Shown here: piece after piece, positions 7,788 to 46,399 of the stretch
Numbering within the stretch: position 1 is the stretch's first letter
Layout of the letters: each line of letters opens with the position of its first letter
Assembly: GCA_947476215.1 (NCBI GenBank)
Contig: CANJQI010000004.1
Location: forward strand, 490-64,489
DNA from: Betaproteobacteria bacterium
GTDB lineage: Bacteria > Pseudomonadota > Gammaproteobacteria > Burkholderiales > SG8-41
Direction: 5' to 3'
Length of the DNA stretch: 64,000 bases
The notes under the pieces: generated by a model
Database searches by the model: none
Seen by the model: the letters and a program-made list of their open reading frames with translations, nothing else
Told to the model about the DNA's origin: nothing
Translations under genes and position numbers: made by a program

Positions 7788-7797
7788 GACGTCGCGA

Positions 7798-10152: not shown

Positions 10153-10317
10153 ATGAAATATTTTCTTGTCTTTTTTCTGGCCGGCCTCGTGTACCTGGAA
10201 GTCGCTCACCAACTCTCCAACGGCGATGATCTCAACACGTTGATGTGCACCAGTGCGCATCCGGATTACCACGCGCTCGGAAACAGCTACCGCGAGCACC
10301 TGGATAACCGGCGCTAG
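10153..10317 (+). CDS. hypothetical small protein (54 aa), hydrophobic N-terminus
   Basis: ATG-to-TAG ORF below the track's size cutoff: MKYFLVFFLAGLVYLEVAHQLSNGDDLNTLMCTSAHPDYHALGNSYREHLDNRR. No recognisable family and no clear RBS. Confidence 0.15.
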   Translation: MKYFLVFFLAGLVYLEVAHQLSNGDDLNTLMCTSAHPDYHALGNSYREHLDNRR

Positions 10318-10321
10318 ATTT

Positions 10322-11494
10322 TCAATTTCGGCGTTCGCTCTTCCATGCGCCGATCACGATGCGCGCATAGCGTTGGAATGAAAAATATGCCCATGCCCAG
10401 TCGGGCATCACGATGATGCGATTGCGGAAACCAATCAGAAAATAGATGTGGGCAAACAACCATACCAGCCACGCCGGCATGCCCGATAGCCTGATCTTGC
10501 CGAGCAGCACCACGGCGGCCCATCTGCTTGGTCGCCGGGCTCACGCCGGGTACCGGCTTTCCGTCGCACACCATGTGCGCAAGGTCACCGATGACCGACA
10601 CTTCAGGATGACCGGGCAGCGACAAGTCCGCGTTGACCACGACACGTCCGGCGCGGTCCAGCGACGTGTTCAATGTTGCACCAAGCGCGGATGCAGCGAC
10701 GCCGGCGGCCCACATCATGGTGCGCGCCTGGATTTCCGTGGCGCCGCCGTTTTCGGCTATTGTCACGCCACCTTCGGTGACAGCGGTAACACGGGCGCCG
10801 GTGCGAACCTCGACGCCCAGTTCTTCGAGCTGCAGACGCGCCCGCTCGGGCAATTCGCCCGGAAACGCAGGTAAAACGCGTTCACCGCCTTCGAGCAACA
10901 GCACGCGCGCCGTGCGAGTATCAAACCGGCGGAATTCACCCGACAACGTATGGCGGGCGATTTCCGCGAGAGTGCCCGCGAGTTCCACCCCGATGACGCC
11001 CGCGCCGATGACCACGAATGTGAGCCACGCACGACGCAGGCTCTCATCGGTTTCACGCTCGGCGTGCTCAAATGCGAGCAGCACGCGCCGGCGCAGTTCG
11101 AACGCGTCTTGCAGCGTTTTCAGGCCCGGTGCATGTCTGGCCCACGCGTCGTTTCCGAAGTAGCTGTGCGTTGCGCCGGAAGCAACGATCAGATGCTCGT
11201 AATCAATGTCACCCATTCCTTCGACGCTTACGCTGCGCGACGCAGTATCGATAGCCGTGACCTCGCCCATCAATACAGTGACGTTGCGCTGCTTGCGGAA
11301 GATATGGCGTATGGGTGCAGCTATGGATGGGCCAGACAAACCCGCCGTTGCGACCTGCTACAGTAGCGGCTGGAACAGATGTGGTTGCAGCGGTCTATCA
11401 CGGTGACGTCTACGAGCTTGCCGCACAAGGTCTTGGCGGCTTCCAGTCCGCCGAAGCCACAACCGATAATCACTATGCGTGGCAATGCCGCCAT
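10322..11494 (-). pseudogene. ndh: type II NADH dehydrogenase (NDH-2) pseudogene with three lesions
   Basis: The N-terminus MAALPRIVIIGCGFGGLEAAKTL... (start 11494) loses frame at about 11378..11386. An in-frame TAG at 11360..11358 replaces the Tyr of HLFQPLL-Y-QVATAGL. The C-terminal segment VVLLGKIRLSGMPAWLVWLFAHIYFLIGFRNR lies in another frame after an out-of-frame internal deletion near 10513. Confidence 0.8.
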
Positions 11495-11515
11495 GGCAGT
11501 TAGTTTACCGAAGCA

Positions 11516-12285
11516 TTAAGCCGTATGGACTTTCCTGATCACCTGCGCCAGCGTCTTCATGTCCGTCAGCCGCGACGTGGAGCGCCGTGCCGCGAGCGCG
11601 ATCGTACGCTTGGGGCTGGGCTTGGCCATTGGCCGGGATACGAGGTTCGGGCCATGTGTCAGTCCCCGTTTCACCGCCATTTCCGGAACCAACCCTATGC
11701 CTAGTCCGGACTCTATCATCTGCACCAGGGTCAGGAGACTGGTGGCTTCCACGCCCAACGTTGCATGCCGGTCGGATGCACCACACACGTACAGAACGTG
11801 ATCGCGCAAGCAGTGCCCCTCCTCTAACAGCAGCAGACGGTCGGTGATCACCGGTGTGACGTTAATCGTCCACGACTTCAATTCCGCATCGTTTTTGCGC
11901 CCGACGACCCATAGATTGTCGTCAAACAGCGGCTCCACGAGCAAATTCGCGGTGTCGTACGGAAGCGCAATCAGAACAAAATCGAGCTTTCCGCCTTCGA
12001 TCCTGGACAACAGGCTGGCGGTGAGATCCTCGCGTACAGGCGTCACCAAAGCGCTGGGCATCGACATGAGCAAGATAGGCAGTTGCGCTCCTCGTCACGG
12101 GCATGCCCGTGGCCTAGTACAACATTGCCGGCGCGTCGATAGGCCTGCCGTTCGGAGCACAGGCGCGCACACAGATTGTGCTGTTCATGAACAGCAAGGT
12201 GCTGGCCGCGTTTCGAAACAGCAAGGGCTGGCAGGCGGGCGTCGATGGCAGCGGCCACCCAGATTTTCCGCGCCAGTGGCCCCAT
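11516..12285 (-). pseudogene. OxyR-like LysR-family regulator remnant (intact-looking effector domain, degraded HTH region)
   Basis: The 185-aa ORF (11516..12073) aligns by eye to the OxyR effector domain (GKLDFVLIALP, LLLLEEGHCLRD, SLLTLVQMIESGLGIGLVP). Upstream, only a shortened, frame-shifted HTH-like stretch (..AAAIDARLPALAVSKRGQHL..AG) survives in another frame. Confidence 0.55.
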
Positions 12286-19097: not shown

Positions 19098-19958
19098 TCA
19101 TTTACCGTTTGCTTCGCGGACTATCAGCGTGCGCTTGCGTGCTATTCCCCAACGATATCCGGAAAGCGATCCATCGCGTCTTACCACCCGATGACAAGGT
19201 ATGGCCACCGCCAGCGCATTCGCGGCGCACGCACTGGCCACTGCGCGCACGGCCTTGGGTGCGCCTATTTTGCGGGCAATTTCGGTATAGGTGGCAGTTG
19301 AACCGGCGGGTATCTTTTGCAGCGCCTGCCAGACCCTGAGTTGAAAGGTGGTTCCGTGAATATCGAGCGGCAGATTGAGCCCGAGTCGCGGCGCCTCGAC
19401 GAACCCGACGACTTGCGCCACCCAGTTCTCGAAGTTTACGTCGCCGCCGACTAAGCGGGCGCGCGCAAAACGATCCTGCAAATCGCGAACCAGCGCCTCG
19501 GGATCATCACCCATCAGAATCGCACAGATACCCTTGTCACTTGCTGCCACGAGGATGGCGCCCAGAGAGCACCTGCCGACGGCAAACCGTATGACGGTAT
19601 TGATACCGCCAGAACGATAGTTGCCGGGCGTCATGCCGAGCAGCTGATTGGACTTCTCATAGAAGCGGCTGCTGGCGTTAAAACCGGCGCTACAGATGGC
19701 ATCAGTGACCGGACTTTTCCTGCCGAGCGCATTGCGCACTTTTTCGGCGCGATGCGCTGTGGCATAAGCCTTGGGTGTTACTCCGGTCGCCGCCTTGAAG
19801 ACGCGGTGAAAATAGTGGGCACTGAACCCAGCCATTTCCGCGAGGTCCGCCAGCGACGGGCTCTGTTCGGCCTGCTCTATCACTCGGCACAGACGCGCGA
19901 TCATCGCTGTGTGCTGAACCTCCGTTCCTGAAACACGCACTTTCATCGCCCTGTTCAT
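19098..19958 (-). CDS. AraC-type HTH fused to methylated-DNA-[protein]-cysteine S-methyltransferase (Ada-like, without the N-terminal Zn domain)
   Basis: C-terminal PCHRVV active site, HGTTFQLRVWQAL, and an AraC HTH (LADLAEMAGFSAHYFHRVFKAATGVTPKAY). Start set at the ATG at 19958 (MNRAMKV) because the longer track ORF overlaps the divergent Bug gene. Confidence 0.8.
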   Translation of the reverse strand: MNRAMKVRVSGTEVQHTAMIARLCRVIEQAEQSPSLADLAEMAGFSAHYFHRVFKAATGVTPKAYATAHRAEKVRNALGRKSPVTDAICSAGFNASSRFYEKSNQLLGMTPGNYRSGGINTVIRFAVGRCSLGAILVAASDKGICAILMGDDPEALVRDLQDRFARARLVGGDVNFENWVAQVVGFVEAPRLGLNLPLDIHGTTFQLRVWQALQKIPAGSTATYTEIARKIGAPKAVRAVASACAANALAVAIPCHRVVRRDGSLSGYRWGIARKRTLIVREANGK

Positions 19959-20104
19959 CTGCTCACCAGAAGAGTTTCCGGAAAGATCGTATGCTATCAA
20001 CGCATCGGGGAAGACGCTATCCGGATCTTGCGTACCAGTTAGCCTCAGGGGCATTGGTACATCGCAGTAGAATAGCGATCGTGTCTGAATATCCCGGAGG
20101 GCAT

Positions 20105-21127
20105 GTGTCCAAACTGGCCAATCGCGCATGGGTCGTGCTTGCCGTAATGACGGTGACGCATGCGGCATGGGTTAGTGGGCAAACATTGTCACCCAGCACG
20201 GAACGGACGGTTTCGACTGGCTCAGAACATACCTATCCAAGTAAACCAATACGCTTTGTGGTGCCGTTTCCTGCCGGTGGCGCGACCGACATCATCGCGC
20301 GCATAGTCGGACAGAAACTGACCGAAAGTACCGGTCAATCGGTCATATTGGACAATCGTGGTGGTGGCTCAAGTATAGTCGGCACCGAGATCGCCGCGCG
20401 GGCCATCCCCGATGGCTACACCATACTGCTGGGTTCGTTTGCTTTTGCCATTACGCCGGCACTGCACGAGCGGCTGCCGTACGATACCGTGCGCGACTTC
20501 GCGGGTGTCAGCATGATAGGTAACGGCCAGGCCGCGCTGGTCGTACACCCTGCCGTACCGGCACACTCGGTGAAAGAGCTTATTGCCCTGGCGAAGGCAA
20601 AGTCAGGCGGGCTTAACTACTCATCGACCGGAGGCGGTAGTGCGAGCAATCTCGGCGCGCTGCTGTTCTGCCATATGGCGGGCGTGAAAATTACCACGGT
20701 TACGTTCAAGGGAGGAAGCCCCGCTCTGGTTGCGTTGCTGGCCGGCGAAGTCAACATGACATTCACCAGCATCGTGCCTACGCTGCCCTACATACGGTCA
20801 GGCAAGCTGCGTGCGTTAGGTGTCAGCAGTGCCAGGCGCACCAGCGTACTGCCGGACGTTCCCACCATCGCGGAAGCCGGCGTCAAGGGCTACGAGCTGA
20901 TTTCCTGGTATGGCGTACTGGCGCCACGCCGGACACCCGCCGCGATTGTGGAAAAACTCAGCAGCGAATTGATGCGCGCCTTGCGCAACGTCGAGGTACA
21001 GGAAAAACTGATTGCTCAGGGTATAGATCCGGTATCCAGCTCGCCGGCGGAACTTTCAAAGTACATCGCCTCGGAGGTCGCGAAGTGGAGCAAAGTGATC
21101 AAGGAGACAGGAGCCCGGCACGAGTAA
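20105..21127 (+). CDS. Bug family (TctC-like) tripartite tricarboxylate transporter substrate-binding protein
   Basis: GTG at 20105 after GGAGGG gives a signal peptide (SKLANRAWVVLAVMTVTHAAWVSG). The Bug signature YPSKPIRFVVPFPAGGATD follows. Confidence 0.85.
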   Translation: MSKLANRAWVVLAVMTVTHAAWVSGQTLSPSTERTVSTGSEHTYPSKPIRFVVPFPAGGATDIIARIVGQKLTESTGQSVILDNRGGGSSIVGTEIAARAIPDGYTILLGSFAFAITPALHERLPYDTVRDFAGVSMIGNGQAALVVHPAVPAHSVKELIALAKAKSGGLNYSSTGGGSASNLGALLFCHMAGVKITTVTFKGGSPALVALLAGEVNMTFTSIVPTLPYIRSGKLRALGVSSARRTSVLPDVPTIAEAGVKGYELISWYGVLAPRRTPAAIVEKLSSELMRALRNVEVQEKLIAQGIDPVSSSPAELSKYIASEVAKWSKVIKETGARHE

Positions 21128-21170: not shown

Positions 21171-22550
21171 TCAGGCGCTGAGCAAGCTTCGAAACACCCG
21201 CGCATCCGCGGTCTTTTCAATGTTCCAGACGGTGTCGATCAACTTGAGCGATCGCCGCTTGCCGATGATCGCCGCCGTCAGGTCCAGGACTTTTTCGGAA
21301 ACATCGGCACGGTTCATCGGATTATCGACAGTTCCCCTGGCGGCACGCGTATGGTGTCTTACGTGACGGCCATCGCGGGTGAAAATTTCGATGATGCCCT
21401 GGCGTGGCGGTTTGGCGGCGGTCAGTTCTGCGCTGGGCGCGAGCACTATGCGTTGTTTCAGCCTGGTCACGCGTCGGTCTTTCATGCGCGCAACATCATG
21501 CGCCGAGTCAAACGTCAGTTCGCCGTCGAGCAATGCAATCGCCAGCAAATGCTCGATGTTGACGTCGGTCATCTTGCTGTTACTCACGATATCTATCCGG
21601 TTATCGGGGGTGTGGATGACGAGTTTTTCGACCTTGTCGGCGGTTATCGCATGGTCTTTCATCAGCGCAAACAGCGAGGTTAGCGCCGCCTGCATAGGCG
21701 AGCCCACCGACCATTTCTTCATTTGCGTATTCATGATCTCGTAGTGCACGCCGAGCCCGCGCACCATTTCTTCCGGATTCGGATTCGACGAGAACGCGGA
21801 GAAAAAATTGCGGTTGCGCTGCCCGGTGAAAGTGTCCTCAACACCGGTGAATCCACATTCAATCATGGTGGCCGCGGCAATACCGTTTTGCGCGGTCATT
21901 CCGCCGAATACATAGGCTTTCATGACGTGTTCGCCGTCGCCCTCGAATGTCCTGATGCCGGAGGCCTGCTGAGCCGCATAGGACAGCAGATGGCGGGTTT
22001 TCTCCGTATCCAGACCCGCCAGCATTCCTGCCGCCGCCGCCGCGCCAAACAGATTTCCAAAGCTGTGATTCGAGCGACCGGCTTTGCGGAATTCAACGGG
22101 ATGAAATGAGCGAGTTATGCGGCAGCCGATGTCGTAGCCCAACACCACGGCCCGCAACAAAAACCTGCCATTGCGGTGTTTGTTTTCGGCCATGGCCAGC
22201 GCCGCCGGTACTATGCCGCACCCCGGATGCATGTTGGCGGCATAGTGCGTGTCGTCGGTCTCGTCAGCGTGTGCAAACATGCCGTTGGCGAATGCGGCGT
22301 TGGCGGCGGTAGTCACCAGCCGGGTGCCCGCCACGCACGCCTGTCGTGCACCCGCCAGCCCGGCGATGTAGGCGATTGCGCGCTTTCCGGGCAATAGTCG
22401 GGATCCTGAAATCATGGACGCGAGTGTGTCGAGCAGGTGGTGTTTGCCCTTCTCGACGACGTCTCCAGGCAGGGCTCTCCTGGCTGCGCCTGCGATGTAG
22501 GCGCTGACCTCTCGCATCAAAGGCGAGACCGCGGATTTCGACTTAGTCAT
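21171..22550 (-). CDS. MmgE/PrpD family protein
   Basis: Start at the ATG at 22550 (MTKSKSAVSP..), 7 nt after the upstream stop, with GAGG as RBS. PrpD-fold motifs are present (HLLDTLASMISG, HADETDDTH). Confidence 0.88.
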   Translation of the reverse strand: MTKSKSAVSPLMREVSAYIAGAARRALPGDVVEKGKHHLLDTLASMISGSRLLPGKRAIAYIAGLAGARQACVAGTRLVTTAANAAFANGMFAHADETDDTHYAANMHPGCGIVPAALAMAENKHRNGRFLLRAVVLGYDIGCRITRSFHPVEFRKAGRSNHSFGNLFGAAAAAGMLAGLDTEKTRHLLSYAAQQASGIRTFEGDGEHVMKAYVFGGMTAQNGIAAATMIECGFTGVEDTFTGQRNRNFFSAFSSNPNPEEMVRGLGVHYEIMNTQMKKWSVGSPMQAALTSLFALMKDHAITADKVEKLVIHTPDNRIDIVSNSKMTDVNIEHLLAIALLDGELTFDSAHDVARMKDRRVTRLKQRIVLAPSAELTAAKPPRQGIIEIFTRDGRHVRHHTRAARGTVDNPMNRADVSEKVLDLTAAIIGKRRSLKLIDTVWNIEKTADARVFRSLLSA

Positions 22551-22557
22551 ACGAACC

Positions 22558-24288
22558 TCAGGACGATGTCTTGGCAGCGCTGGATTTGGCAAGCAGGGAA
22601 TTCCAGTCCCGGGGCAGCCGAATTTTTGCGCTGGTGGCGTAACCCTGCTTAAAATTCTGCCGATAGATGCAGCAACGATTGCGCGTCGGATCACCTGAAA
22701 CAACTACCAACCATTTGGTCTCGGGCAACAGCAAAGGTACCTCGCGATTAGGGTCGTCCGACGTACACCACGCCTTGGGCATTTCGCCTTTCGCGACCAG
22801 TTCGCACAGTGTCGTGCCGGGCGGATGCGAGGTTCCCGCGGTCATATTCCATTCAAAGTAGTGCGCCGGAACTGTCGCGTTTTTCATGATGTAATCGACG
22901 ACATCCTGCTTCGAGTACCCAGCCCGGGCCACCAGCGACGCAATAACCGGTGTCATCAGAAGCACATGCGTCTCTATGTAACCGCGCGATGCCTGATACG
23001 GGTCTATCATGCGTTTGGCCCAGTCCACGATGTAATCCAGATGGCGTTCCGCGTTTTCGCCGGCCGTTGAAAACGGGTCACTCACGGCGCGCACCGAGGT
23101 AATGGTTACCGCATTGTCATCGGGTGCGAAACCGCGCATGACGTGCAGCGGCTGCCAGCCCATGTCGTTACAGGCTTTTTCGTTCTCCGCGACCACGGCT
23201 CTGAACATCTGGCCGAAGGTCGCCATATCGGTCGTGCCGGGCAGGAACTTCGGCACGTTCCTGCAAAACAACCGGTAAAAGCGGCCTATGCTGGTGTTGG
23301 CCTGATTGCCCGGACGCTGCGCGGCCACTTCGCAATTGAACTCCAGCTGTTTTGCAATGGGGCCATTCAATATGATCATGCCTTCCCATCCGGGCGTGCT
23401 GCCGCCATGCTTGGCGCCGAAATCGGGCGTGGCCATGACATCGACGATGGCGAGCAATATCGGCATGTATTCCGGACGACAACCGGCCATGACGCCGTTG
23501 ACCGCGACCTTCCATACCGTGGCCTCGGCCTGACTGGGATGCAATACGCCTATGACTTCATCGGGAGAGCGGTCGGTATATTTGAGAAACGCTTCTATGC
23601 TTTCCAGGGTCGGCGGCACGACAGGCAGACCGTCGGACCAACCCTGGCGCTGGAAGTGTTCGTTGACTTCATTGAAAGATCCCTTAAATACAATGTCGCG
23701 GTCCTGCGGTTGAGCCACGGGCGCCGGCGCGCCCTTTACCGGTTCGAGTTGGGTCAGCCCCTTGACGATCTGATCGATCAGCACTTCTTCGATATTCCGT
23801 GTGATCGTTTCGTCCTTGTGCGTGGAAATGACGCCCGGATACTCTGCAACCGGAAGATTGGGATACCCGGAATCCTTGCCTATGGCTTTAACTGTGCCCG
23901 GAAAGCCCTTGATGGCGATGGTAACGCTGGGTACCCCACAATTTTCCGCAACGATGCTGGCCCGCGAACTCGCGGACGTGCAACTTCCTCAACCACCATT
24001 GCCGGAAATAACCGCATCGACCTGATATTCCTTGAGTTTGCCGGGTAGCGCCTTGATGACATCCGACTCCACCGGACCATACGTGTCGCCGAATTTTTCA
24101 TGGGGGACGAATTTGATATCTGGATACCGCTTCAGCAATGCCTTTTCAACAACAGCGAATGTCAGTTCGCTGCCGAACTTGTGATTCGACAACTCGCCTA
24201 TGGTCATGCCATTCAGCGATTGCAGGCGGGCCGTAACGGTTCTTGCCTTCTGGGTCAGTCTGCCCAGCGGATACACGACCTCGTACAT
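22558..24288 (-). CDS. candidate selenoprotein: UGSC-motif domain (Sec at the UGA 23991..23989) continuous with a ~400-aa conserved domain of unknown function (WSDGLPVVPPT motif)
   Basis: ORF 23989..24288 (GAGGA RBS) ends ..AVISGNGG-TGA. The same frame continues GSCTSASSRASIVAENCGVPSVTIAIKGFPG...NIEEV with no stop into ORF 22558..23784, giving 576 codons in total. A hairpin lies 11 nt after the UGA. Confidence 0.7.
23960..23977 (-). promoter_or_regulatory. SECIS-like hairpin downstream of the UGSC UGA
   Basis: mRNA reads UGA-GGAAGUUGCAC-GUCCGCG-AGUU-CGCGGGC. This is a 7-bp stem (one G.U) with a 4-nt loop containing GU, starting 11 nt after the UGA. Confidence 0.55.
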
Positions 24289-24402
24289 GGATAATTCCTC
24301 TCGATGGAAAACGCTTCCTTAAGCCTCATGCACGCACAATGCGAAACATTGCGACTTGGCTAACGTGCGCTTGAACCTACAATGCGTGTTCTGCTTTGTC
24401 AA

Positions 24403-24426
24403 GAAAGCGGAACAGAAAGCGGAACA
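24403..24426. repeat. tandem duplication of the 12-mer GAAAGCGGAACA in the divergent intergenic region
   Basis: Two perfect adjacent copies lie between the UGSC gene start (24288) and the PrpD-like gene start (24509). Confidence 0.6.
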
Positions 24427-24508
24427 TGTCACCCTTCATCCGTTGCAATCAGATTGCCGCGAATTACTGATATCCTCCACATGCAATATCGACCAGGAGA
24501 AATACGCA

Positions 24509-25867
24509 GTGATTACACGCAAGCTTGCCGCCTTTGCGGCTGAACTCAAATACCAGGACCTGCCGGTGGCGACGGTCGAAACCGCAAAACGCCTGTTGCT
24601 CGATGGCCTGGGTTGTCTGCTTGCGGGCACCGCGGGTTGGCCGGGCCGCAGCGCTGCTGCGATGACGCGCCGGCTCGGCGGCGATGCGCAGGCCATGGTA
24701 TATGCCGAAGGCAAGCGCAATTCGGTGTGTCATGCCGCTTTCGCAAACGGCATTACGCTGTACAGCGTGGGGCTGAACGACTTTCTGCAACGCGCTGGCG
24801 CGCATCCGGGTGCGAGCGTGATACCCGTGTTGCTTGCGGTCGGGGAATGGCAGCGCTGTTCGGGCAAGTCGCTGATCGCCGCGATGGCGGCGGGATATGA
24901 AGTGATAGACCGGCTGGGACGGTCCATCATGCCCAGCCACAGGGAGCGTGGATTTCATCCGACCGGCACGTGCGGAACGTTCGGTGCTACCGCGGCGGCG
25001 GGCCGGTTGCTGGAACTAAACGGCGCGCAGATCGCGTGCGCGTTCGGCATCGCCGGCAGCCAGGCGGCGGGTCTCTACGAATATATCAACGACGGCACTT
25101 CCACCATCATGTTCCACGCCGGCCGCGCCGCCAAGAATGGCGTCGAAGCCACGCTGGCGACGCAGGCGGGACTGACCGGACCGGCGACTATATTCGAAGG
25201 CACGCGCGGTTTTTTTCGGGCCACCTCGGACAAGATAGACCTCGACGCCGCGTTGAAGGATCTGTCGCATCGATATGCACTGAACGAAACCACGTTCCGG
25301 CCGTATTTCGGGTGCACTTCTACCATCGCGGCATCGGGTGCAACGGCGCAGATCATGCTGCGCGTGGGCGGTGCGCGATCAGCGGACGTCGAAGAGGTCA
25401 ATGTTTATTGCAATCCGGTGGTTGCCAATGACAATGCCGAAACCGATCCTCGCACCTTGCTCGGTGCACGCCTGAGCCTGCCGTTCAACGTCGCCCTGGT
25501 GCTTGCCCATGGTGACGTCATGGTCGCCGACCTCGAGGAAAAAGATCTCATGGACAGCAAGGTCCGCAGCCTGATTCCCAAAATACGGATGATCAGCGAT
25601 GCAGCCATACCGCGCTTCGGCAGCACAGTCGAAGTCAAGTTCAAAGGGGGCACGAGCGAAAAGGTCGCCATGCATTCCTGGCGCGGAGACGCCGACGATC
25701 CGTTGCCCTGGAACGAAGTCGTCATGAAGTTCCGGCGCCTGGTACGCCCCGTGATCGCCACCGCGGGTCAGGACCGTATCGTTGAGCGGGTGGCGAATAT
25801 CGACAGCGCCGGCGTCAGCGATCTTGCGGAGGCATTAAGCGCGGCGCTCGCGCAGGGAACCGGCTAG
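24509..25867 (+). CDS. MmgE/PrpD family protein
   Basis: GTG at 24509 after AGGAG (MITRKLAAFAAELKYQDLP..). PrpD-like motifs are present (LLDGLGCLLAG). Confidence 0.88.
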   Translation: MITRKLAAFAAELKYQDLPVATVETAKRLLLDGLGCLLAGTAGWPGRSAAAMTRRLGGDAQAMVYAEGKRNSVCHAAFANGITLYSVGLNDFLQRAGAHPGASVIPVLLAVGEWQRCSGKSLIAAMAAGYEVIDRLGRSIMPSHRERGFHPTGTCGTFGATAAAGRLLELNGAQIACAFGIAGSQAAGLYEYINDGTSTIMFHAGRAAKNGVEATLATQAGLTGPATIFEGTRGFFRATSDKIDLDAALKDLSHRYALNETTFRPYFGCTSTIAASGATAQIMLRVGGARSADVEEVNVYCNPVVANDNAETDPRTLLGARLSLPFNVALVLAHGDVMVADLEEKDLMDSKVRSLIPKIRMISDAAIPRFGSTVEVKFKGGTSEKVAMHSWRGDADDPLPWNEVVMKFRRLVRPVIATAGQDRIVERVANIDSAGVSDLAEALSAALAQGTG

Positions 25868-25868
25868 G

Positions 25869-26843
25869 CTAACCCGCGGCAGGACGTGCGCCGCTATCCT
25901 TGATCATTTTTGCGATGCGGCTGATCTCGGATTTGATGGTGGACAGCAGTTCCGCCGGTGAACTGGCAACGATTTCCAGCCCCGCGTTAAACACCCTCTC
26001 CTTGGTGTCGGGTCGATTCAGGTAACGCACGATTTCCTGATTGAGTCTCGCGACGATGGCATCGGGCGTGCGCGCTGGTGCGAATATTCCATGCGTGGTT
26101 CCGGTCTCAAAACCGGGTATACCCGCCGCGGCGGCGGTCGGGAGTCCCGGTGCCAACGGCGTTGGCTGCGCGCTGGCGACCGCCAACGCGCGCAATCTGC
26201 CCTGCTTGACGTGCGGCATCACGGAAGTCGCGGTGATCACTATCATGTCCACCTGTCCACCGACCGTGGCATTGAGCGCGGGCCCCGCGCCTTTGTAGGG
26301 AATGGCCGCGATGTTGACACCGGCCATCGCCTTGAACAACTCGGCGGAAATATAGGTTGTCGCCCCCTTGGTACCCGATGCGCAGTTGATCACACCCGGT
26401 CTGGCTTTCGCCAACGCAACCAGTTCCTTGACGGTCTTGACCGGCAGGGATGGATGCACGGCGATGACCGCAGGCGAGGTCGTGGTCAGCGAGATAGGCG
26501 CGTAGTCCTTGATCGGATCGTACGGCACATTGTCCTGAAACAGCGGCAGCAGCCAGTGTGCATTGGCGCTGAACAGCAAGGTGTAACCGTCGGGCGGAGA
26601 CTTGGAAACAAGTTCAGCCGGAATGATGGCGCTGCCGCCACGATTATCCACGACCGCCTGCTGACCCAGGTTGGTGGAAAGACCTTGCGCAACGATGCGC
26701 GCCGCCAGGTCGGCGCCGCCGCCCGCCTCGGGCGCCACGATACGCAAAGGTTTGGACGGGTAGTTCTGGCAGTGCGCCACATCGCATCTCAAGAGTCCCA
26801 GCCCCATTAGAGCAATACTCAAAAACGAACCCTGCAATTGCAT
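25869..26843 (-). CDS. Bug family (TctC-like) substrate-binding protein
   Basis: 324 aa with a signal peptide, then YPSKPLRIVAPEAGGGADL. Confidence 0.88.
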   Translation of the reverse strand: MQLQGSFLSIALMGLGLLRCDVAHCQNYPSKPLRIVAPEAGGGADLAARIVAQGLSTNLGQQAVVDNRGGSAIIPAELVSKSPPDGYTLLFSANAHWLLPLFQDNVPYDPIKDYAPISLTTTSPAVIAVHPSLPVKTVKELVALAKARPGVINCASGTKGATTYISAELFKAMAGVNIAAIPYKGAGPALNATVGGQVDMIVITATSVMPHVKQGRLRALAVASAQPTPLAPGLPTAAAAGIPGFETGTTHGIFAPARTPDAIVARLNQEIVRYLNRPDTKERVFNAGLEIVASSPAELLSTIKSEISRIAKMIKDSGARPAAG

Positions 26844-30553: not shown

Positions 30554-31939
30554 TCAGCGCGCCCCGACTTCCGTCGCCGCCAGTAACGTTTCCAAATTTT
30601 CGGATTTTTCCAGATTCCATAATGCATCCAACAACTTACGTGCCTGTGCCGCGGGCAGCCGCTCGCCCACCTGCTGCAAAAATTTTGCCTCCAGTTCCTG
30701 ATCCGACATGGGGTTGGCGGGGTGCCCCTTGGGATTAATCTGGTGGGCGGCAACCACTTTTCCGGACTTCAGCGTGGCTTCGATCCGGCAGTGATGCGTG
30801 TGCGAACGGGCCGCGGTGTAAACCGGATCTTCCTTGACGCTGATTTTTTTCATCAGCGCCAGTATGGTCGGATCGCGGAAGCGTCGCGGCGTCATCGTCT
30901 CTTCGGTAATTTCGCCGTCAACCAGAGCCGCGCCTAGCAAATAGGGCCCGCTGTGGTCGGCCGTCTCGCGGGTCTTGGGATCCCATCGCGCGGGGCTGAA
31001 AATGTCGTTGTAGGCAAGATGCGAATCCGCATAAACAACGATGGACTCGACATCGTCGAGCTTGAGTTTCTGGCGCAATTCGAATGCGGTGAAAACCGGC
31101 AGCTGTATCGAATACACCACTGGCAGGTACTTGAAATAGACGCCCTCGATCTTGTAAGGGACACCACCGTTGCCACCCAGATCACCGAGCTTGAACGGCG
31201 TATCAAGCTGTTTCATGAACCCCGCCGTCCCCTCGAATGGCTGCGCCGGTCCGGTGATACCCGCCTGCGCCAGTTGCGCCGCCATCAGTCCTGCGCGGCT
31301 GCCGTTGGGACCCGCCAGTCCTTTCCACACACAGAGCTCGCCTTTGCGGGTTTCTCTAAGGCAAATGTTAGCCACCAGCGCCAGACCCAGTGCGCTGTGC
31401 AGTTGCTCCTTGGTCAATCCCAATACCTTGCCGGCGCCCAGCGAGGTGGCCGCCGAATGCATGACCGGGTAATCCCATCCCTTGGATCCCAGCGTAATGT
31501 GGTCCACGAGCTGGGCGCACACCTCGTACGCGATGACAGTACCCAGTATCATTGTCCTGCCGTTACCACGCATCGATTCGGTGGCCGCCAGCAGACTGCC
31601 GATGTTGTCGCTCGGATGCGGACCTGCCTGCAGACTGTGGCTGCCGAAGTAATCATCGCTGAAGTCCAGGTAACGGATCATCGTGCCGTTGACGAATCCG
31701 GCCTGCTCGGGTGAGCTCCGGATGCGGGTGCCGATGAGCGTGGCGGGATTGGTGGCGGTTATCTTCTGCGCCAGCGCTCGCACTGCCTTAACCGGTTCCG
31801 CGTCGAACGCGCCCAAAGCGCATCCTATGGAATCGACGATACTGCGCTTGGCACCATGTATCGCCTGCGCGGTCAGATCGTCATAAGACAGACCCGCTGC
31901 GTAGCTGACAAATTTATCCGCGGTTGCATCCATAGTCAT
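30554..31939 (-). CDS. MmgE/PrpD family protein
   Basis: 461 aa with PrpD-fold N- and C-domain motifs (IVDSIGCALGA, FSDDYFGSH). Confidence 0.88.
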   Translation of the reverse strand: MTMDATADKFVSYAAGLSYDDLTAQAIHGAKRSIVDSIGCALGAFDAEPVKAVRALAQKITATNPATLIGTRIRSSPEQAGFVNGTMIRYLDFSDDYFGSHSLQAGPHPSDNIGSLLAATESMRGNGRTMILGTVIAYEVCAQLVDHITLGSKGWDYPVMHSAATSLGAGKVLGLTKEQLHSALGLALVANICLRETRKGELCVWKGLAGPNGSRAGLMAAQLAQAGITGPAQPFEGTAGFMKQLDTPFKLGDLGGNGGVPYKIEGVYFKYLPVVYSIQLPVFTAFELRQKLKLDDVESIVVYADSHLAYNDIFSPARWDPKTRETADHSGPYLLGAALVDGEITEETMTPRRFRDPTILALMKKISVKEDPVYTAARSHTHHCRIEATLKSGKVVAAHQINPKGHPANPMSDQELEAKFLQQVGERLPAAQARKLLDALWNLEKSENLETLLAATEVGAR

Positions 31940-31991: not shown

Positions 31992-33386
31992 TCAGGCGAG
32001 CGTGAATAGCGGCGGGAGATCCGCCATGCTCCCCATGTCTTCGAGGTTTAACAGTCGATCCAGTATGAAGTTTACTCTCTTTGCTCCCAACGCATCTTCG
32101 CTCAGCGCGCGAAACTTGTCCGTCACCAGCGACAAACTGCTGTGCGCCGACTGATCGCCCTTGCCATAGCTCACGTCAGCCGTCTGGCGCTCGCCGGAAG
32201 TCGCCATGATAGTCACGCGCGCGCACTGTCGTGCCGGCACCTGCTGGTATGCGCGTGTGTATTCTTCGTTTTCGATGACTTCGATTTTCTGCATCAACGC
32301 ACGCAGATCGGGGTCCCACAAACGCGCGTTGCCGTACGAGCGCGGGGTCAACGTTCCGTCCACCAGCGCCGCCGCGACGATGAACGGGATGCTGTGATCG
32401 GCCGTCTCGGGCGAATCGGGATTCCAGTCGTGTGCTCCCGATCCGGAAGCCGCTTTCGCCTTCATGTGAACTTCGACCGTAATACGATCGATACCATTTG
32501 CACTCTTGACCGGCGCGAGTTTCTCCGCCGCGAGAGCCGTCGCGATAATCAGCCCGACCGCCGGCCGCGTCTTGATGGTCGACTCGGCAATCTTGAATGA
32601 AACCGCGCCGCCGCCGAAAGTGTCCAGGGTAAACTGCTCGCGGGCCACATGCGCACACCATCCCGCCTTGCCCGTGAAAGGCAGATGCGGACCTTCCATG
32701 CCCGCCTGCGCCAGTTGCGCCGCAAACACGCCGGCGCGCCCTGATTGCCCCGAGGCCGCCATTTTCCACGTCGTAAGGTGGCCTATTCGAGTCTGTTTCA
32801 GCGCATTGTTCGGCACTGCCGCCATGGCAATACAGTGCGCGAATTCGCTTTCCGACAGGCCCAGCATTCTGCCCGCGCCTACCGCAGCGCCCACGCAGCC
32901 GAAAGTCGTGTAATCGAAACCGTCGTTGTGAAAAATATCCGCGAGCCGTATGAAGACTTCATAGGCAAGCACGACGGCCGTGATGAAATCGCGACCGCTC
33001 GCACGTGCCGGTTCGCCGACGGCAAGCACGGGCGCAATAACGTCGCTCGGGTGTCCGTGCGCGCTTCCCGGCCAATGGTAGGTGTCGGTGAAATTGACAT
33101 ATCTGGCAGTCGCGGCGTTGACGAAAGCGGCGACGTCGGGCGCTGTCTTCATGCGTGTACCGAGCACGCTCGCCCCGTGCGCAGTGGGGCAACTTGCAGC
33201 CAGCTTGCGCGCAAGCTGGCAAGGTTCGCCAAAGAAACCTGCCACCAGCGCACCGAGAGTATCAATAATGCGCAGCTTGGCAGCTTGCACGGACTCCGGC
33301 GTGAGCGCCTCATAACGCAGGCTGTACGCGTAATTCGCGAGCCGCTGTTGTACGGGATCTATCGCTCTGTCGACTTTGGATTCCAC
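31992..33386 (-). CDS. MmgE/PrpD family protein
   Basis: 464 aa (IIDTLGALVAG, FTDTYHWPGSAHGHPSD), in tandem with the previous paralogue. Confidence 0.88.
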   Translation of the reverse strand: MESKVDRAIDPVQQRLANYAYSLRYEALTPESVQAAKLRIIDTLGALVAGFFGEPCQLARKLAASCPTAHGASVLGTRMKTAPDVAAFVNAATARYVNFTDTYHWPGSAHGHPSDVIAPVLAVGEPARASGRDFITAVVLAYEVFIRLADIFHNDGFDYTTFGCVGAAVGAGRMLGLSESEFAHCIAMAAVPNNALKQTRIGHLTTWKMAASGQSGRAGVFAAQLAQAGMEGPHLPFTGKAGWCAHVAREQFTLDTFGGGAVSFKIAESTIKTRPAVGLIIATALAAEKLAPVKSANGIDRITVEVHMKAKAASGSGAHDWNPDSPETADHSIPFIVAAALVDGTLTPRSYGNARLWDPDLRALMQKIEVIENEEYTRAYQQVPARQCARVTIMATSGERQTADVSYGKGDQSAHSSLSLVTDKFRALSEDALGAKRVNFILDRLLNLEDMGSMADLPPLFTLA

Positions 33387-34736: not shown

Positions 34737-36119
34737 TTAGAGGTTGCGCGTCTGATCCAGCGCAAACGGTTCCAGTATCTCGTTGACAGTCTTCATTTCG
34801 TCCAGATGCCACAACCGGTCTAACGCATTGCGGGCACGGTCCTGTCCCATGACCGGTTCGGTCAGCCTCAGGAATTTCGCTTCTATATCCTTGTCGCTCA
34901 TCGGATTTTTGGGGTGCCCCTTGGCGTAGCGGATTTCGCGCAGGTGCTGGTGCCCGGATTTTGTGGTGACGGTAATGCGGAACGGATAGGCCTCCGGCCA
35001 GTCGCGATTGCAGGCGTCGGTGGCGCGCACCTGGATTTTCTGCATCAGCGCGTGTATGCGGGGTTCGCGGATGCGCTCTTCCTCGAAATCTTCCAGCCAC
35101 AGTTTTCCTCTGGCGAGCCCCACAGCTGCCACGTAAGGAATGCTGTGATCGGCCGTTTCGCGGTTTTGCGGACTCCACTTGTCCGGGGTATCGGCGGATA
35201 TCTTGATCGCGTGATCGTAGGTCTCGATTTCGACCTTGTCGATATCATCGATATTGCCGTGCAAAGCCGCGTGCAACTCCAGTATCGGCGTGAAAGCGCA
35301 CTGCGCCTCGTAATCGCACGGGTAATACTTGAATTTGTCGGTTTCGATCGTGTACGGCACGCCCGCCCCACCAAACGCGGCCAGTTTCAGCGTGGTGCCC
35401 AGTTGTTGCTTGAAGCCCCGCGTGCCGTCGAATGCCTCCAACGGCCCGGTCATGCCACGGCGCGCCAACAGCGCCGCGAACGTGCCGTTGCGCGCCGAAT
35501 TCGGCGCGGTGCACCCTTTCCACATCGAGAGATGGCCAACCCGCGTCTGCCCCATCGCGGCATAGGGCACGGCGGCCAATGCCAGCGCATACGCCGTTTG
35601 ATCCTTGTTCAACCCCAGCGCTTTAGCGGCGCCGGCGGCGGCGGACACGCCGACGAATATGGCGCTGTCCCAACCCCTGGCCCTGAGATCCTTGCACGCG
35701 TCGCCGAATCGGCCCTGAACCTCATACGCAATAACGATACCGGCGATCGCGGTTTGCACCGTGGCTCCTGCATATTCCGCCGCAGCCAGCACCGCCGGAA
35801 TATTGTCACTCGGATGTCCGGCATTGCCCGACATGCTGGTATCGTTGAAGTCGAGATAACGCACCATCACGCCATTGGCGAATGCAGCCAGTTCCGGCGT
35901 GGTCTTATGCCGTGTACCCAGCACAGTGGAACCCGGTGTAGACACCGCCTCCAGCGCATGTGCGCGTGCCATGCGCGGAGGCTCCATGTCATAGCAACCC
36001 ATGGCGCAGCCCAGCGTATCTATCATGCGGCGCTTGACCTGATGTACCAGGCTGTCCGACAAGTCCGCGTAATTCAGTGCGTAGCCGTAGTTACTCAGAA
36101 AATTCAGTACGCCATCCAT
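34737..36119 (-). CDS. MmgE/PrpD family protein
   Basis: Start at the ATG at 36119 (MDGVLNFLSNYGYALNY..) after GGGGA. PrpD motifs are present (MIDTLGCAMG, FNDTSMSGNAGHPSD). Confidence 0.88.
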   Translation of the reverse strand: MDGVLNFLSNYGYALNYADLSDSLVHQVKRRMIDTLGCAMGCYDMEPPRMARAHALEAVSTPGSTVLGTRHKTTPELAAFANGVMVRYLDFNDTSMSGNAGHPSDNIPAVLAAAEYAGATVQTAIAGIVIAYEVQGRFGDACKDLRARGWDSAIFVGVSAAAGAAKALGLNKDQTAYALALAAVPYAAMGQTRVGHLSMWKGCTAPNSARNGTFAALLARRGMTGPLEAFDGTRGFKQQLGTTLKLAAFGGAGVPYTIETDKFKYYPCDYEAQCAFTPILELHAALHGNIDDIDKVEIETYDHAIKISADTPDKWSPQNRETADHSIPYVAAVGLARGKLWLEDFEEERIREPRIHALMQKIQVRATDACNRDWPEAYPFRITVTTKSGHQHLREIRYAKGHPKNPMSDKDIEAKFLRLTEPVMGQDRARNALDRLWHLDEMKTVNEILEPFALDQTRNL

Positions 36120-36310
36120 GGATTTTTCCCCGCTCGACAACTCGCACGCTCCTAAATCGGACAAACCGGCGTGGACTCTAGAGAAGATGGGCTGCGTTTG
36201 TCAATTATTTGAAAAGGGTTCGGGCTCGTGACGGGAACTGCATCACTGCGCATGGCCACGAAGTTGCATGGCCTCGTTGAATCATCGTAACATGCAGGCC
36301 AACTTTTACA

Positions 36311-46265: not shown

Positions 46266-46363
46266 ATGAATTCCTTTGTGAAGAAGGTACTGGTTCTTCT
46301 TTGACGTGGTTTGCCAAGCAATCGCGCTGTGGGAAGACGCTATTGTCCGGGACACGCCGTGTG

Positions 46364-46399
46364 TTGACAACTGCTATACACCACCATAAGATGTGTATA
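46364..46399 (+). promoter_or_regulatory. candidate sigma70 promoter and operator of the tacAT-like module
   Basis: TTGACA (46364..46369), a 17-nt spacer, then TAAGAT (46387..46392). The inverted repeat TATACAC (46375..46381) / GTGTATA (46393..46399) brackets the -10. Confidence 0.4.

What the first reader, a model, noticed from the sequence alone, without database searches (positions are those of the whole stretch)
22558..24288. In-frame UGA inside a G-G-U-G-S-C motif plus SECIS-like hairpin: a selenoprotein that the ORF track splits, continuous with a 400-aa domain of unknown function
ORF 23989..24288 (GAGGA RBS) ends ..EYQVDAVISGNGG at TGA 23991..23989. The same frame then reads GSCTSASSRASIVAENCGVPSVTIAIKGFPGTVKAIGKDSGYPNLPVAEYPGVISTHKDETITRNIEEV and runs with no stop into the 408-aa ORF 22558..23784. 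The total is 1731 nt, or 576 codons with UGA as codon 100. The UGA therefore sits in a U-G-S-C (UxxC) redox-type motif. From memory, NCBI annotation uses the name 'UGSC family (seleno)protein' for exactly this motif; I cannot verify that here. Eleven nt after the UGA the mRNA can form GUCCGCG-AGUU-CGCGGGC (23977..23960), with the position and GU-containing loop expected of a bacterial SECIS. The downstream part (..QGWSDGLPVVPPTLESIEAFL.., AVNGVMAGCRPEYMP..) is a conserved-looking domain I cannot assign. Because no stop separates the two parts, this genome would make a fusion whose full-length synthesis depends on Sec insertion. Termination at the UGA would give a 99-aa fragment. The GTG at 23784 could also allow independent initiation of the C-terminal domain.
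Basis: partly seen in the sequence, partly recalled or inferred. Interest (0 to 1): 0.88.

Follow-up and report, generated by a model that had tools for sequence, protein, structure and literature searches.

The report
Long-form UGSC selenoprotein gene, mis-split
This is one real gene for a 576-residue selenocysteine-containing protein of the known but functionally uncharacterised UGSC family; gene callers cut it in two at the selenocysteine codon, and most of its relatives are built the same way.

Summary
On the minus strand, 24288..22558 is one frame of 576 codons plus stop, with a single internal TGA (23991..23989, codon 100) in G-G-U-G-S-C. Pfam's UGSC model matches residues 3-179 end to end, across the TGA. 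All 21 related Burkholderiales loci and 41 of 56 classifiable metagenomic loci have TGA at this codon; 15 have Cys codons. Full-length Cys proteins of 563-588 aa show the two parts form one polypeptide. The hairpin 23977..23960 is unremarkable on energy alone, but comparison supports a SECIS. Codons 105-108 are the only 4 of 236 conserved degenerate codons with no synonymous change. Other clades have different hairpins at the same distance, and Cys forms relax these constraints. The roughly 380-aa C-terminal domain models confidently (pLDDT 93) but has no Pfam, NCBIfam or PDB relative. The UGSC domain is flavodoxin-like and distantly resembles the Sec site of PrdB/GrdB. Thioredoxin-reductase-like genes sit next to the gene in five divergent loci, suggesting an NAD(P)H-driven selenol/thiol reductase acting on imported carboxylates; that step is inferred. 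The family was already described, and a UGSC fusion was noted in 2008, so this is a new member of a known kind. Sec machinery genes could not be checked.

The parts
22558..24288 (-). Complete selenoprotein gene: 576 sense codons (Sec at codon 100) plus the terminal TGA at 22560..22558.
   Evidence: Searches show a single frame. Homologous Sec-form genes of 563-581 codons occur in 19 Burkholderiales loci. Natural full-length Cys forms are 563-588 aa.
24296..24300 (-). Shine-Dalgarno-like GAGGA, 7 nt upstream of the ATG at 24288.
   Evidence: Read directly from the sequence.
23989..23991 (-). UGA decoded as selenocysteine (residue 100) in G-G-U-G-S-C.
   Evidence: TGA is at the aligned codon in 22 of 22 sequences of this clade and in 41 further metagenomic loci. 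15 loci have TGC or TGT there.
23960..23977 (-). SECIS core hairpin GUCCGCG-AGUU-CGCGGGC. A possible lower stem extends the element to about 23990..23950.
   Evidence: Fold. The core CCGCG-AGUU-CGCG is identical in 22 of 22 sequences. Codons 105-108 are the only 4 of 236 conserved degenerate codons with zero synonymous variation. The UGA-to-loop distance of 18 nt and G at loop position 2 fit the pattern seen in 43 and 53 of 65 Sec forms.
23752..24282 (-). UGSC domain (residues 3-179). It is a flavodoxin-like alpha/beta fold, with U100 at the N-terminus of the helix that follows a central strand.
   Evidence: Pfam PF24696 matches 1-171 of 172 positions at 95.5 bits. The AF2 model of the closest Cys form has strand 99-105 followed by helix 110-123, with Cys110 equivalent to U100. 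Foldseek hits to flavodoxin-like domains are weak.
22561..23691 (-). C-terminal domain of unknown function (about residues 200-576). Motifs are WSDGLPxxPPT and AVNGVMAGCxPE. Invariant residues across the 45-sequence alignment are D219, T227, A262, C270, P272, G309, N331, R336, N344, E368 and G386.
   Evidence: Alignment A1. No Pfam or NCBIfam hit. AF2 pLDDT 93.3, pTM 0.90. No PDB relative by sequence or by fold; the best fold hit has E 1.9e-3 and TM 0.21.
21174..22550 (-). Downstream MmgE/PrpD-family gene. Its ATG lies 7 nt after the selenoprotein stop codon, so the two are probably co-transcribed.
   Evidence: Sequence; Pfam. MmgE/PrpD genes also lie next to or near the fusion gene in L001, L022, L059, L089 and L110.

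Best explanation
One gene (24288..22558, minus strand) encodes a 576-residue cytoplasmic selenoprotein of the long form of the UGSC family.

Shown:
- During translation the UGA at codon 100 is recoded to selenocysteine.
- A hairpin starting 11 nt downstream has the position and loop features of a bacterial SelB-binding SECIS.
- The product has two domains in one chain. The first is an N-terminal flavodoxin-like UGSC domain carrying the U-G-S-C redox motif at a strand-to-helix junction. The second is a C-terminal domain of about 380 residues with no described relatives.

Inferred (my probability about 0.4):
- The U-x-x-C pair cycles between selenol/thiol and selenenylsulfide.
- It is re-reduced by NAD(P)H through a thioredoxin-reductase-like flavoprotein or the general thioredoxin system.
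- It delivers reducing power, or a nucleophilic selenolate, to a small carboxylate substrate bound on the C-terminal domain.
- This would be analogous to the way the Sec of PrdB/GrdB attacks a bound substrate in Stickland reductases.

The stated confidence refers to the identity (a real Sec-containing long-form UGSC gene), not to the chemistry.
For: Identity:
- Single frame with one internal TGA.
- Pfam UGSC matches end to end across the TGA.
- TGA is at the same codon, with protein conservation on both sides, in 21 of 21 Burkholderiales loci and in 41 of 56 classifiable metagenomic loci at 27-50% identity.
- Natural full-length Cys forms carry CG[SAT]C at that site.

SECIS:
- Codons 105-108 are the only 4 of 236 conserved degenerate codons with no synonymous change.
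- Different clades have different hairpins at the same place, for example GCCCGC-CGUGUU-GCGGGC, CCGGCCGC-GGN-GCGGCCGG and GUCAUGGA-GUU-UCCAUGAC.
- The UGA-to-loop distance is 17-18 nt in 43 of 65 Sec forms. G is in the first two loop bases in 53 of 65 Sec forms against 2 of 15 Cys forms. Mean MFE is -12.8 vs -7.7 kcal/mol, p = 4.5e-5.
- In peptide-matched sequences the Arg codon is CGG in 28 of 28 Sec forms against 3 of 6 Cys forms.

Mechanism:
- The UxxC motif itself.
- 7 of 14 full-length members weakly hit PrdB, and 4-6 of them hit each of GrdB, GrdF and GrdH. The hits always cover the Sec-site segment, and the U/C falls at about PrdB profile position 152 and GrdB position 350.
- PrdB has Sec151 in a UxxC motif, and that Sec attacks the substrate alpha-carbon (PMC11229817, PMC1088965).
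- TrxB-like flavoprotein genes are directly adjacent in five independent, divergent loci covering both Sec and Cys forms: L103, L046, L040, L105 and L108.
- Carboxylate-uptake genes (TctC, TRAP) and organic-acid catabolic genes are nearby.
Against: - selA, selB, selC and selD could not be looked for outside the 64-kb window, and none is among the 30 window ORFs scanned or the RNA scans.
- The hairpin's energy is not unusual for this GC-rich sequence.
- The PrdB/GrdB similarity is far below every curated cut-off (12-16 bits). No pyruvoyl-protein partner (PrdA/GrdE) was seen in the neighbourhoods annotated.
- The TrxB-like neighbour is absent from the window and from most loci, and no neighbour is universal.
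- Some paralogues have lost the redox motif altogether (P0132 has GGGASGA).
- The conserved Cys of the C-domain is Ala in 10 of the 44 C-domain ORFs where the motif could be read. A single fixed chemistry for the whole family is therefore doubtful.
- I could not read model coordinates, so I do not know whether U100 faces the conserved C-domain residues.
Confidence: 0.9

Rival explanations
1. The TGA is a true stop, from a nonsense mutation, an assembly error or two adjacent genes. In that case a 99-aa fragment and a separate 408-aa protein starting at GTG 23784 are made, or the locus is a pseudogene.
For: Public gene callers annotate exactly this split. The same window contains a clearly disrupted NDH-2-like gene, so assembly errors or pseudogenes do occur in it. 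No sel genes are visible in the window.
Against: - The TGA is at the identical codon in 62 independent loci from many assemblies, with protein conservation on both sides.
- The Pfam UGSC domain spans the TGA, so 99 aa would be half a domain.
- GTG 23784 is residue 169, inside that domain.
- Synonymous sites are frozen exactly over the hairpin.
- Full-length Cys forms exist.
Confidence: 0.02
2. It is a genuine selenoprotein, but the UxxC motif does not reduce a substrate bound on the C-domain. Instead it acts as a generic thiol-disulfide oxidoreductase or peroxidase-type antioxidant, or as a metal, selenium or sulfur carrier. The C-domain then has a separate enzymatic or structural role.
For: - The literature groups UGSC proteins with redox-motif proteins of unknown function and suggested a Trx-like fold (PMC2398784; PMC13188914).
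- Stand-alone UGSC proteins of about 150 aa exist (the NF041046 profile is 147 positions), so the domain can work without the C-domain.
- Some paralogues keep the C-domain but lose the Cys/Sec motif.
Against: - Thousands of fused homologues exist (4382 representatives at E <= 1e-3), and the two-domain AF2 model has pTM 0.93. Both argue for a functional unit.
- The only recurring distant sequence relatives are the substrate-attacking selenoprotein B reductases.
- The neighbours are catabolic and transport genes rather than stress-response genes.
Confidence: 0.3
3. Sec insertion is deliberately inefficient. The UGA then works as a selenium-sensing switch that sets the ratio of a 99-aa product to the full-length enzyme.
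For: Bacterial Sec insertion competes with release factor 2 (general knowledge).
Against: A 99-aa product would be a truncated half-domain that ends just before the active-site helix. Nothing in the data suggests it is stable or functional. Cys forms, which cannot switch in this way, are common.
Confidence: 0.05

Closest known systems
UGSC-containing protein / UGSC family (seleno)protein (Pfam PF24696, NCBIfam NF041046; Zhang & Gladyshev 2007-2008)
   Same: - Same domain: the Pfam match is end to end at 95.5 bits.
- Same U-G-S-C motif, and Sec forms outnumber Cys forms here as in the GOS data (255 Sec vs 21 Cys; PMC2398784).
- Function is unknown for this family too.
- NCBI already applies this name to at least one long-form relative (MFA5580731.1).
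   Different: - The reference family model describes a protein of about 147 aa. This one has an extra domain of about 380 aa, and its UGSC domain is divergent (55 bits vs a cut-off of 125).
- The AF2 model points to a flavodoxin-like fold, not the thioredoxin-like fold suggested in 2008.
'UGSC/Unknown_1 fusion' of Zhang & Gladyshev 2008 (PMC2398784, Fig. S1A)
   Same: A UGSC selenoprotein fused to a conserved domain of unknown function that contains a conserved Cys. That matches the architecture here, including C270.
   Different: I could not establish that the two domains are the same. The figure is held only as an image, and the stored sequence file is cut before the UGSC entries. [quoted passage not shown]
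Selenoprotein B of Stickland reductases (PrdB, GrdB, GrdF, GrdH; Pfam GRDB)
   Same: - UxxC motif with Sec as the first residue.
- Weak but recurrent profile matches centred on the Sec site, with the U/C at about PrdB profile position 152 and GrdB position 350.
- In the Stickland reductases, a disulfide-reductase-type system recycles the enzyme (PrdC for PrdB, PMC11229817; thioredoxin/TrxB for Grd, from general knowledge). This parallels the TrxB-like neighbours seen here.
   Different: - Scores are far below the family cut-offs.
- No pyruvoyl partner protein (PrdA/GrdE) is nearby.
- The hosts are Burkholderiales and other Proteobacteria from soil and water, not amino-acid-fermenting anaerobes.
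- The C-terminal domain has no counterpart in PrdB or GrdB.

Membership tests
UGSC family (Pfam PF24696) | Match to the family profile above the curated gathering score, over the whole domain | tested here: met
   95.5 bits against a cut-off of 25; residues 3-179 match profile positions 1-171 of 172, across the UGA.
UGSC family (NCBIfam NF041046, equivalog) | Score at or above the NCBI curated cut-off (125 bits) | tested here: not met
   55.4 bits. All 14 full-length Cys forms hit the model (best E 1.3e-17), and the one member whose bit score was listed, P0126, also scores below the cut-off (42.2 bits). The long form is a divergent subfamily of the domain.
UGSC family | U/C-G-S-C motif at the conserved position, with Sec/Cys alternation among homologues | tested here: met
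   The window has GG-U-GSC. 62 loci have TGA and 15 have TGC or TGT. Cys forms carry CG[SAT]C.
Bacterial selenoprotein gene (SelB/SECIS-dependent UGA recoding) | In-frame UGA with coding conservation on both sides, and Cys-containing homologues | tested here: met
Bacterial selenoprotein gene (SelB/SECIS-dependent UGA recoding) | Stem-loop just downstream of the UGA, with the apical loop about 16-37 nt away and G in the first loop positions (bSECIS consensus, recalled from Zhang & Gladyshev 2005) | tested here: met
   A 7-bp stem with loop AGUU, 18 nt from the UGA. Frozen synonymous sites. Clade-specific hairpins at the same position, relaxed in Cys forms. No Rfam model reached threshold at the site.
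Bacterial selenoprotein gene (SelB/SECIS-dependent UGA recoding) | selA, selB, selD and tRNA-Sec present in the same genome | not testable with these tools
   Only 64 kb are available. No tRNA-Sec was found, and no Sel domains are among the 30 ORFs scanned.
Bacterial selenoprotein gene (SelB/SECIS-dependent UGA recoding) | Selenium actually incorporated at the UGA | not testable with these tools
   Needs 75Se labelling or mass spectrometry.
Selenoprotein B reductases (PrdB/GrdB/GrdF/GrdH) | Significant match to a family model | tested here: not met
   Best E-values are 4.6e-4 to 1e-2 at 12-16 bits, against cut-offs of 65-800 bits. The match covers only about 50-70 residues around the Sec site.
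Selenoprotein B reductases (PrdB/GrdB/GrdF/GrdH) | Adjacent gene for a pyruvoyl-forming partner (PrdA or GrdE) | tested here: not met
   None was seen among the neighbours annotated in the window or in the loci examined. Many neighbouring ORFs in the metagenomic loci were clustered but not all were annotated.

The most novel reading that the evidence does not exclude
Long-form UGSC proteins could be a widespread, unrecognised class of selenium-dependent reductases in aerobic soil and freshwater Proteobacteria. Under this reading they are evolutionary cousins of the Stickland selenoprotein B enzymes. A PrdB-like Sec site, recycled by a dedicated TrxB-like flavoprotein, would be fused to a substrate-binding catalytic domain whose fold has no solved counterpart. 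The enzyme would reductively transform imported di- or tricarboxylates or amino-acid-derived acids.
Probability: 0.3. Interest if true: 0.7.

Novelty: new member of a known kind. Interest (0 to 1): 0.4.

Why it matters
UGSC proteins are among the most abundant selenoprotein families in aquatic metagenomes, and reviews up to 2026 still list them without a function.

- **Annotation.** This locus shows how standard annotation hides the long form. Recognising the full gene corrects the annotation here and in many MAGs.
- **Function.** The comparison gives concrete leads that can be tested: a PrdB/GrdB-like Sec site, a recurrent thioredoxin-reductase-like partner gene, carboxylate-uptake and organic-acid catabolic neighbours, and a confidently modelled C-terminal domain with no solved relative.

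None of this changes what kind of thing the locus is. It is a typical Sec-form member of a family already described.

Tried and rejected
1. Hairpin energy against shuffles gave z = -0.08, so energy alone is not evidence. I replaced it with comparative tests.
2. An Rfam gathering-threshold scan of the window found only a tRNA-Gln and no SECIS model hit.
I modelled the closest natural Cys form and the window's own C-domain instead.
4. PDB sequence-profile searches gave only chance-level hits such as Hsp104/ClpB, ferredoxin and xylanase.
5. Foldseek against the PDB gave only weak flavodoxin-like matches for the full-length model. For the C-domain, the hits to class I fumarate hydratase, 'Toblerone-fold' amidohydrolases and YjgF-like proteins had TM <= 0.21 and rmsd 12-19 A, so I do not treat them as homology.
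6. I tried three times to verify that 'Unknown_1' of the 2008 paper is this C-domain. The figure is an image and the dataset is truncated.
7. I looked for a universal conserved neighbour and found none. MmgE/PrpD is adjacent here but is not conserved in most Burkholderiales loci.
8. I considered the invariant Cys of the C-domain (C270) as an obligatory redox partner or pyruvoyl precursor. I rejected it as a universal feature because it is Ala in 10 of the 44 C-domain ORFs where the motif could be read.
9. Independent initiation at GTG 23784 is rejected because it lies inside the UGSC domain.
10. An alternative genetic code is rejected because the gene's own terminator is also TGA.
Full report
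**1. The observation**

On the minus strand, ATG 24288 is preceded by GAGGA (24300..24296) with a 7-nt spacer. It opens a frame that runs to TGA 22560..22558. The only internal stop is TGA 23991..23989, codon 100, in the context ...VDAVISGNGG-U-GSCTSASSRAS....

Public gene calls on the identical contigs make the same split.

The hairpin GUCCGCG-AGUU-CGCGGGC is at 23977..23960, 11 nt after the UGA. A scan of every in-frame TGA in the window flanked by long open frames found about 40 sites. Only this one has both flanks plus a strong stem 18 nt downstream with G in the loop.

**2. What the N-terminal part is**

Pfam PF24696 (UGSC family) matches residues 3-179 over profile positions 1-171 of 172, at 95.5 bits against a cut-off of 25. 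The domain therefore spans the UGA, and a 99-aa product would be half a domain.

NCBIfam NF041046, 'UGSC family (seleno)protein', also hits, but at 55 bits against a cut-off of 125.

**3. Is the UGA decoded?**

I fetched 22 related loci from species-representative genomes, all Burkholderiales or Betaproteobacteria MAGs. In all 21 where the region is present:

- TGA is at the same codon;
- the roughly 100 upstream residues are conserved (M..YEVVYPLGR...);
- the frame runs without a stop into the C-terminal domain.

Nineteen of them give complete genes of 563-581 codons; L018 runs off its contig end and L021 is disrupted.

A metagenome scan gave 80 more loci at 27-50% identity. Of the 56 I could classify, 41 loci (43 genes) have TGA at the site and 15 have TGC or TGT.

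A search of 1.8 billion representative proteins with the 476 residues after the U found 4382 relatives at E <= 1e-3. These include many full-length proteins of 563-588 aa with CG[SAT]C at the site. Many others are 440-475 aa and begin a few residues after the U position, which is what gene callers produce from Sec forms.

The two parts are therefore one polypeptide, Sec and Cys alternate at one position, and Sec is the commoner state.

**4. The SECIS**

On energy alone the hairpin is unremarkable: -17.6 kcal/mol, z = -0.08 against shuffles. Four comparative results support it.

- *Frozen synonymous sites.* Among 236 codons that are conserved at the protein level and degenerate, the mean codon entropy across 22 sequences is 1.18 bits. 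Only four have zero entropy. They are contiguous, codons 105-108 (GCC GCG AGT TCG), and form the 5' arm, the loop and the first bases of the 3' arm.
- *Different hairpins at the same place in other clades.* Examples are GCCCGC-CGUGUU-GCGGGC, CCGGCCGC-GGN-GCGGCCGG, GUCAUGGA-GUU-UCCAUGAC and GCGUGGA-GUG-UCCACGC.
- *Sec forms against Cys forms:*

| Feature | Sec forms | Cys forms |
|---|---|---|
| UGA-to-apical-loop distance of 17-18 nt | 43 of 65 | no preferred distance |
| G in the first two loop bases | 53 of 65 | 2 of 15 |
| Mean MFE (kcal/mol) | -12.8 | -7.7 |

  The MFE difference gives p = 4.5e-5, at similar G+C.
- *Peptide-matched control.* Among sequences encoding the same x-G-x-C-[TA]-P-A-x-x-R peptide, the Arg codon is CGG in 28 of 28 Sec forms against 3 of 6 Cys forms. 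By my own hand calculation, a Fisher exact test gives about 0.003. The Pro codon is CCC in 26 of 28 against 2 of 6. One Cys form (L105) keeps what looks like a relic hairpin.

Sec machinery genes could not be checked. The window has only tRNA-Gln, and none of the 30 ORFs scanned carries a Sel domain. In 64 kb this says nothing about the rest of the genome.

**5. The C-terminal domain**

No Pfam or NCBIfam model hits it in the window protein. Pfam found only UGSC in eight diverse relatives.

Across 45 sequences at 28-73% identity the invariant residues are D219, T227, A262, C270, P272, G309, N331, R336, N344, E368 and G386. The motifs are WSDGLPxxPPT and AVNGVMAGCxPE.

AlphaFold2 models are confident:

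| Model | Mean pLDDT | pTM |
|---|---|---|
| Full-length Cys form P0126 | 93.2 | 0.93 |
| Window's own C-domain | 93.3 | 0.90 |

In the full-length model the Sec-equivalent Cys110 sits at the start of helix 110-123, after strand 99-105, in an alternating beta-alpha domain. Foldseek's only consistent matches for that domain are flavodoxin-like proteins, and they are weak.

The C-domain alone has no PDB hit with E < 1e-3. The best is class I fumarate hydratase at TM 0.21 and rmsd 18 A. PDB sequence-profile searches also found nothing. I treat it as a confidently folded domain with no solved relative in the library available here.

**6. Clues to function**

- *Distant relatives of the Sec site.* The window protein and 7 of 14 full-length Cys forms weakly hit PrdB. 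Between 4 and 6 of the 14 also hit each of GrdB, GrdF and GrdH. The hits always cover the 50-70 residues around the U/C, and no other family recurs. The coordinates place the U/C at about PrdB profile position 152 and GrdB position 350. PrdB has Sec151 in a UxxC motif. That Sec attacks the alpha-carbon of substrate bound to the partner protein, and U151C is inactive (PMC11229817, PMC1088965).
- *A recurrent partner gene.* A flavoprotein of about 300 aa lies directly next to the fusion gene in five independent, divergent loci. Its best family match is thioredoxin-disulfide reductase, below the equivalog cut-off, with CxxC motifs CATC, CASC and CAWC. The loci are L103, L046 and L040 (Sec forms), L105 (Cys form, 8 nt downstream) and L108/L109 (Cys form, divergent). 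Such genes are few per genome, so by my rough estimate this adjacency is far above chance.
- *Other neighbours:*
  - TctC binding-protein genes are directly adjacent on the same strand in 10 of 21 Burkholderiales loci.
  - A TRAP transporter lies near the gene in L108.
  - In L110 the gene sits in a dicarboxylate/acyl-CoA operon with MmgE/PrpD, MaoC hydratases, an acyl-CoA dehydrogenase, a family III CoA-transferase, an HpcH-type lyase, an SDR and an OCD/mu-crystallin gene.
  - In the window a MmgE/PrpD gene starts 7 nt after the stop codon.
  - No neighbour is universal.

**7. Mechanism I think most likely**

*Shown:* SECIS-directed Sec insertion gives one two-domain protein with a U-x-x-C site.

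*Inferred (about 0.4):* the selenol/thiol pair is reduced by NAD(P)H through a TrxB-like flavoprotein or the general thioredoxin system. It then acts on a small carboxylate bound by the C-domain, in the way selenoprotein B acts on its bound substrate.

*Against a single fixed chemistry:* some paralogues lack the motif entirely (P0132). The C-domain Cys is Ala in 10 of the 44 ORFs where the motif could be read. No pyruvoyl partner was seen, and I could not measure distances in the models.

**8. Comparison with what is known, and novelty**

UGSC-containing proteins have been listed as selenoproteins of unknown function since 2007-2008 and are still listed that way in 2022 and 2026 reviews (PMC1976440, PMC2398784, PMC9312934, PMC13188914). 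They are among the most abundant families in the GOS data, with 255 Sec forms against 21 Cys forms.

The 2008 paper also mentions a 'UGSC/Unknown_1' fusion with a conserved Cys. I could not confirm that this is the same domain. NCBI names at least one long-form relative 'UGSC family (seleno)protein'.

The locus is therefore a new member of a known kind that standard gene calling mis-splits. This analysis adds:

- the evidence that the fused Sec form is the common state across many lineages;
- the comparative SECIS tests;
- the flavodoxin-like fold, in place of the thioredoxin-like fold suggested earlier;
- the PrdB/GrdB link;
- the TrxB-like partner;
- the absence of any solved relative for the C-domain.

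**9. Verdict**

Two claims need correcting: independent initiation at GTG 23784 has no support, and the fusion is not particular to this genome. Interest is moderate (0.4), because the result is ordinary for specialists but offers a usable route into an unsolved functional question.

Noticed in passing
window 10314..11560 (minus strand): A type II NADH dehydrogenase-like gene looks disrupted. The N-terminal FAD motif (PRIVIIGCGFGGLEAAK) is in a different frame from the rest. A TAG at 11360..11358 replaces what I recall, from knowledge of NDH-2 proteins, to be a conserved Tyr in FQPLL[Y]QVATAGL. This is either a pseudogene or an assembly error.
   Followed up: partly
window 21174..22550, 24356..25864, 30557..31939, 31995..33386, 34740..36164, 61673..63106: There are six MmgE/PrpD-family paralogues in 64 kb, plus at least five TctC (Bug-family) binding-protein genes at 19991..21124, 25872..26843, 37496..38449, 45306..46370 and elsewhere. 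This is a dense organic-acid catabolism and uptake region of the kind I recall as typical of Burkholderiales genomes.
   Followed up: partly
window 5020..9723 (minus strand): A PrkA / DUF444 / SpoVR three-gene cluster. From memory this corresponds to the E. coli yeaG-yeaH-ycgB stress module; that correspondence was not checked here.
   Followed up: no
L083 (two copies), L099 (two to three copies), L008, L064, L089: Several loci carry two or more copies of the fusion gene or of its C-domain close together. In L083 and L099 two copies each have their own TGA.
   Followed up: partly
P0132 (567 aa); second copy in L026: Some full-length paralogues have lost the redox motif altogether (GVGGGASGAAAD, GGSTTLMTPD) while keeping both domains. 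The P0132 cluster has 28 member sequences.
   Followed up: no
P0202, P0203, P0150 (1254 aa), P0159 (1226 aa); loci L071-L092: A Cys-form clade (GNGGCGLCTPKE) has signal-peptide-like N-termini. It includes giant multi-domain proteins with two C-domain copies, one of them with a copper amine oxidase N-terminal domain. An extracytoplasmic version of this architecture was unexpected.
   Followed up: no
L090, L094, L097, L099, L100 ('GD-U-GSCTK' clade): In the one ORF of this clade whose C-domain I read (L090), the otherwise conserved Cys in AVNxVMAGC is Ala. It is Ala in 10 of 44 readable C-domain ORFs overall. The hairpins after the UGA in this clade are AU-rich and weak.
   Followed up: partly
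L105 2157..3899: A Cys form retains a hairpin (CCCGCCGUGAUCCGGG) at the SECIS position. It looks like a relic of a recent Sec-to-Cys change.
   Followed up: no
L021 about 5490..6000: The N-terminal 100 codons are out of frame upstream of the TGA in this MAG. This is a probable indel error in the assembly.
   Followed up: no
L004, L006, L007, L011, L014 (record titles): MAG records titled 'Bordetella parapertussis' or 'Streptomyces sp.' carry loci that are about 70% identical to the other uncultured Burkholderiales loci. The taxonomic labels look unreliable.
   Followed up: no
window 19101..20168 (minus strand): An Ada/Ogt-type methylated-DNA-protein-cysteine methyltransferase gene. This family has Sec-containing members in some bacteria (PMC1976440). 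The ORF is read as one continuous 356-aa frame, and its active-site residue was not examined.
   Followed up: no
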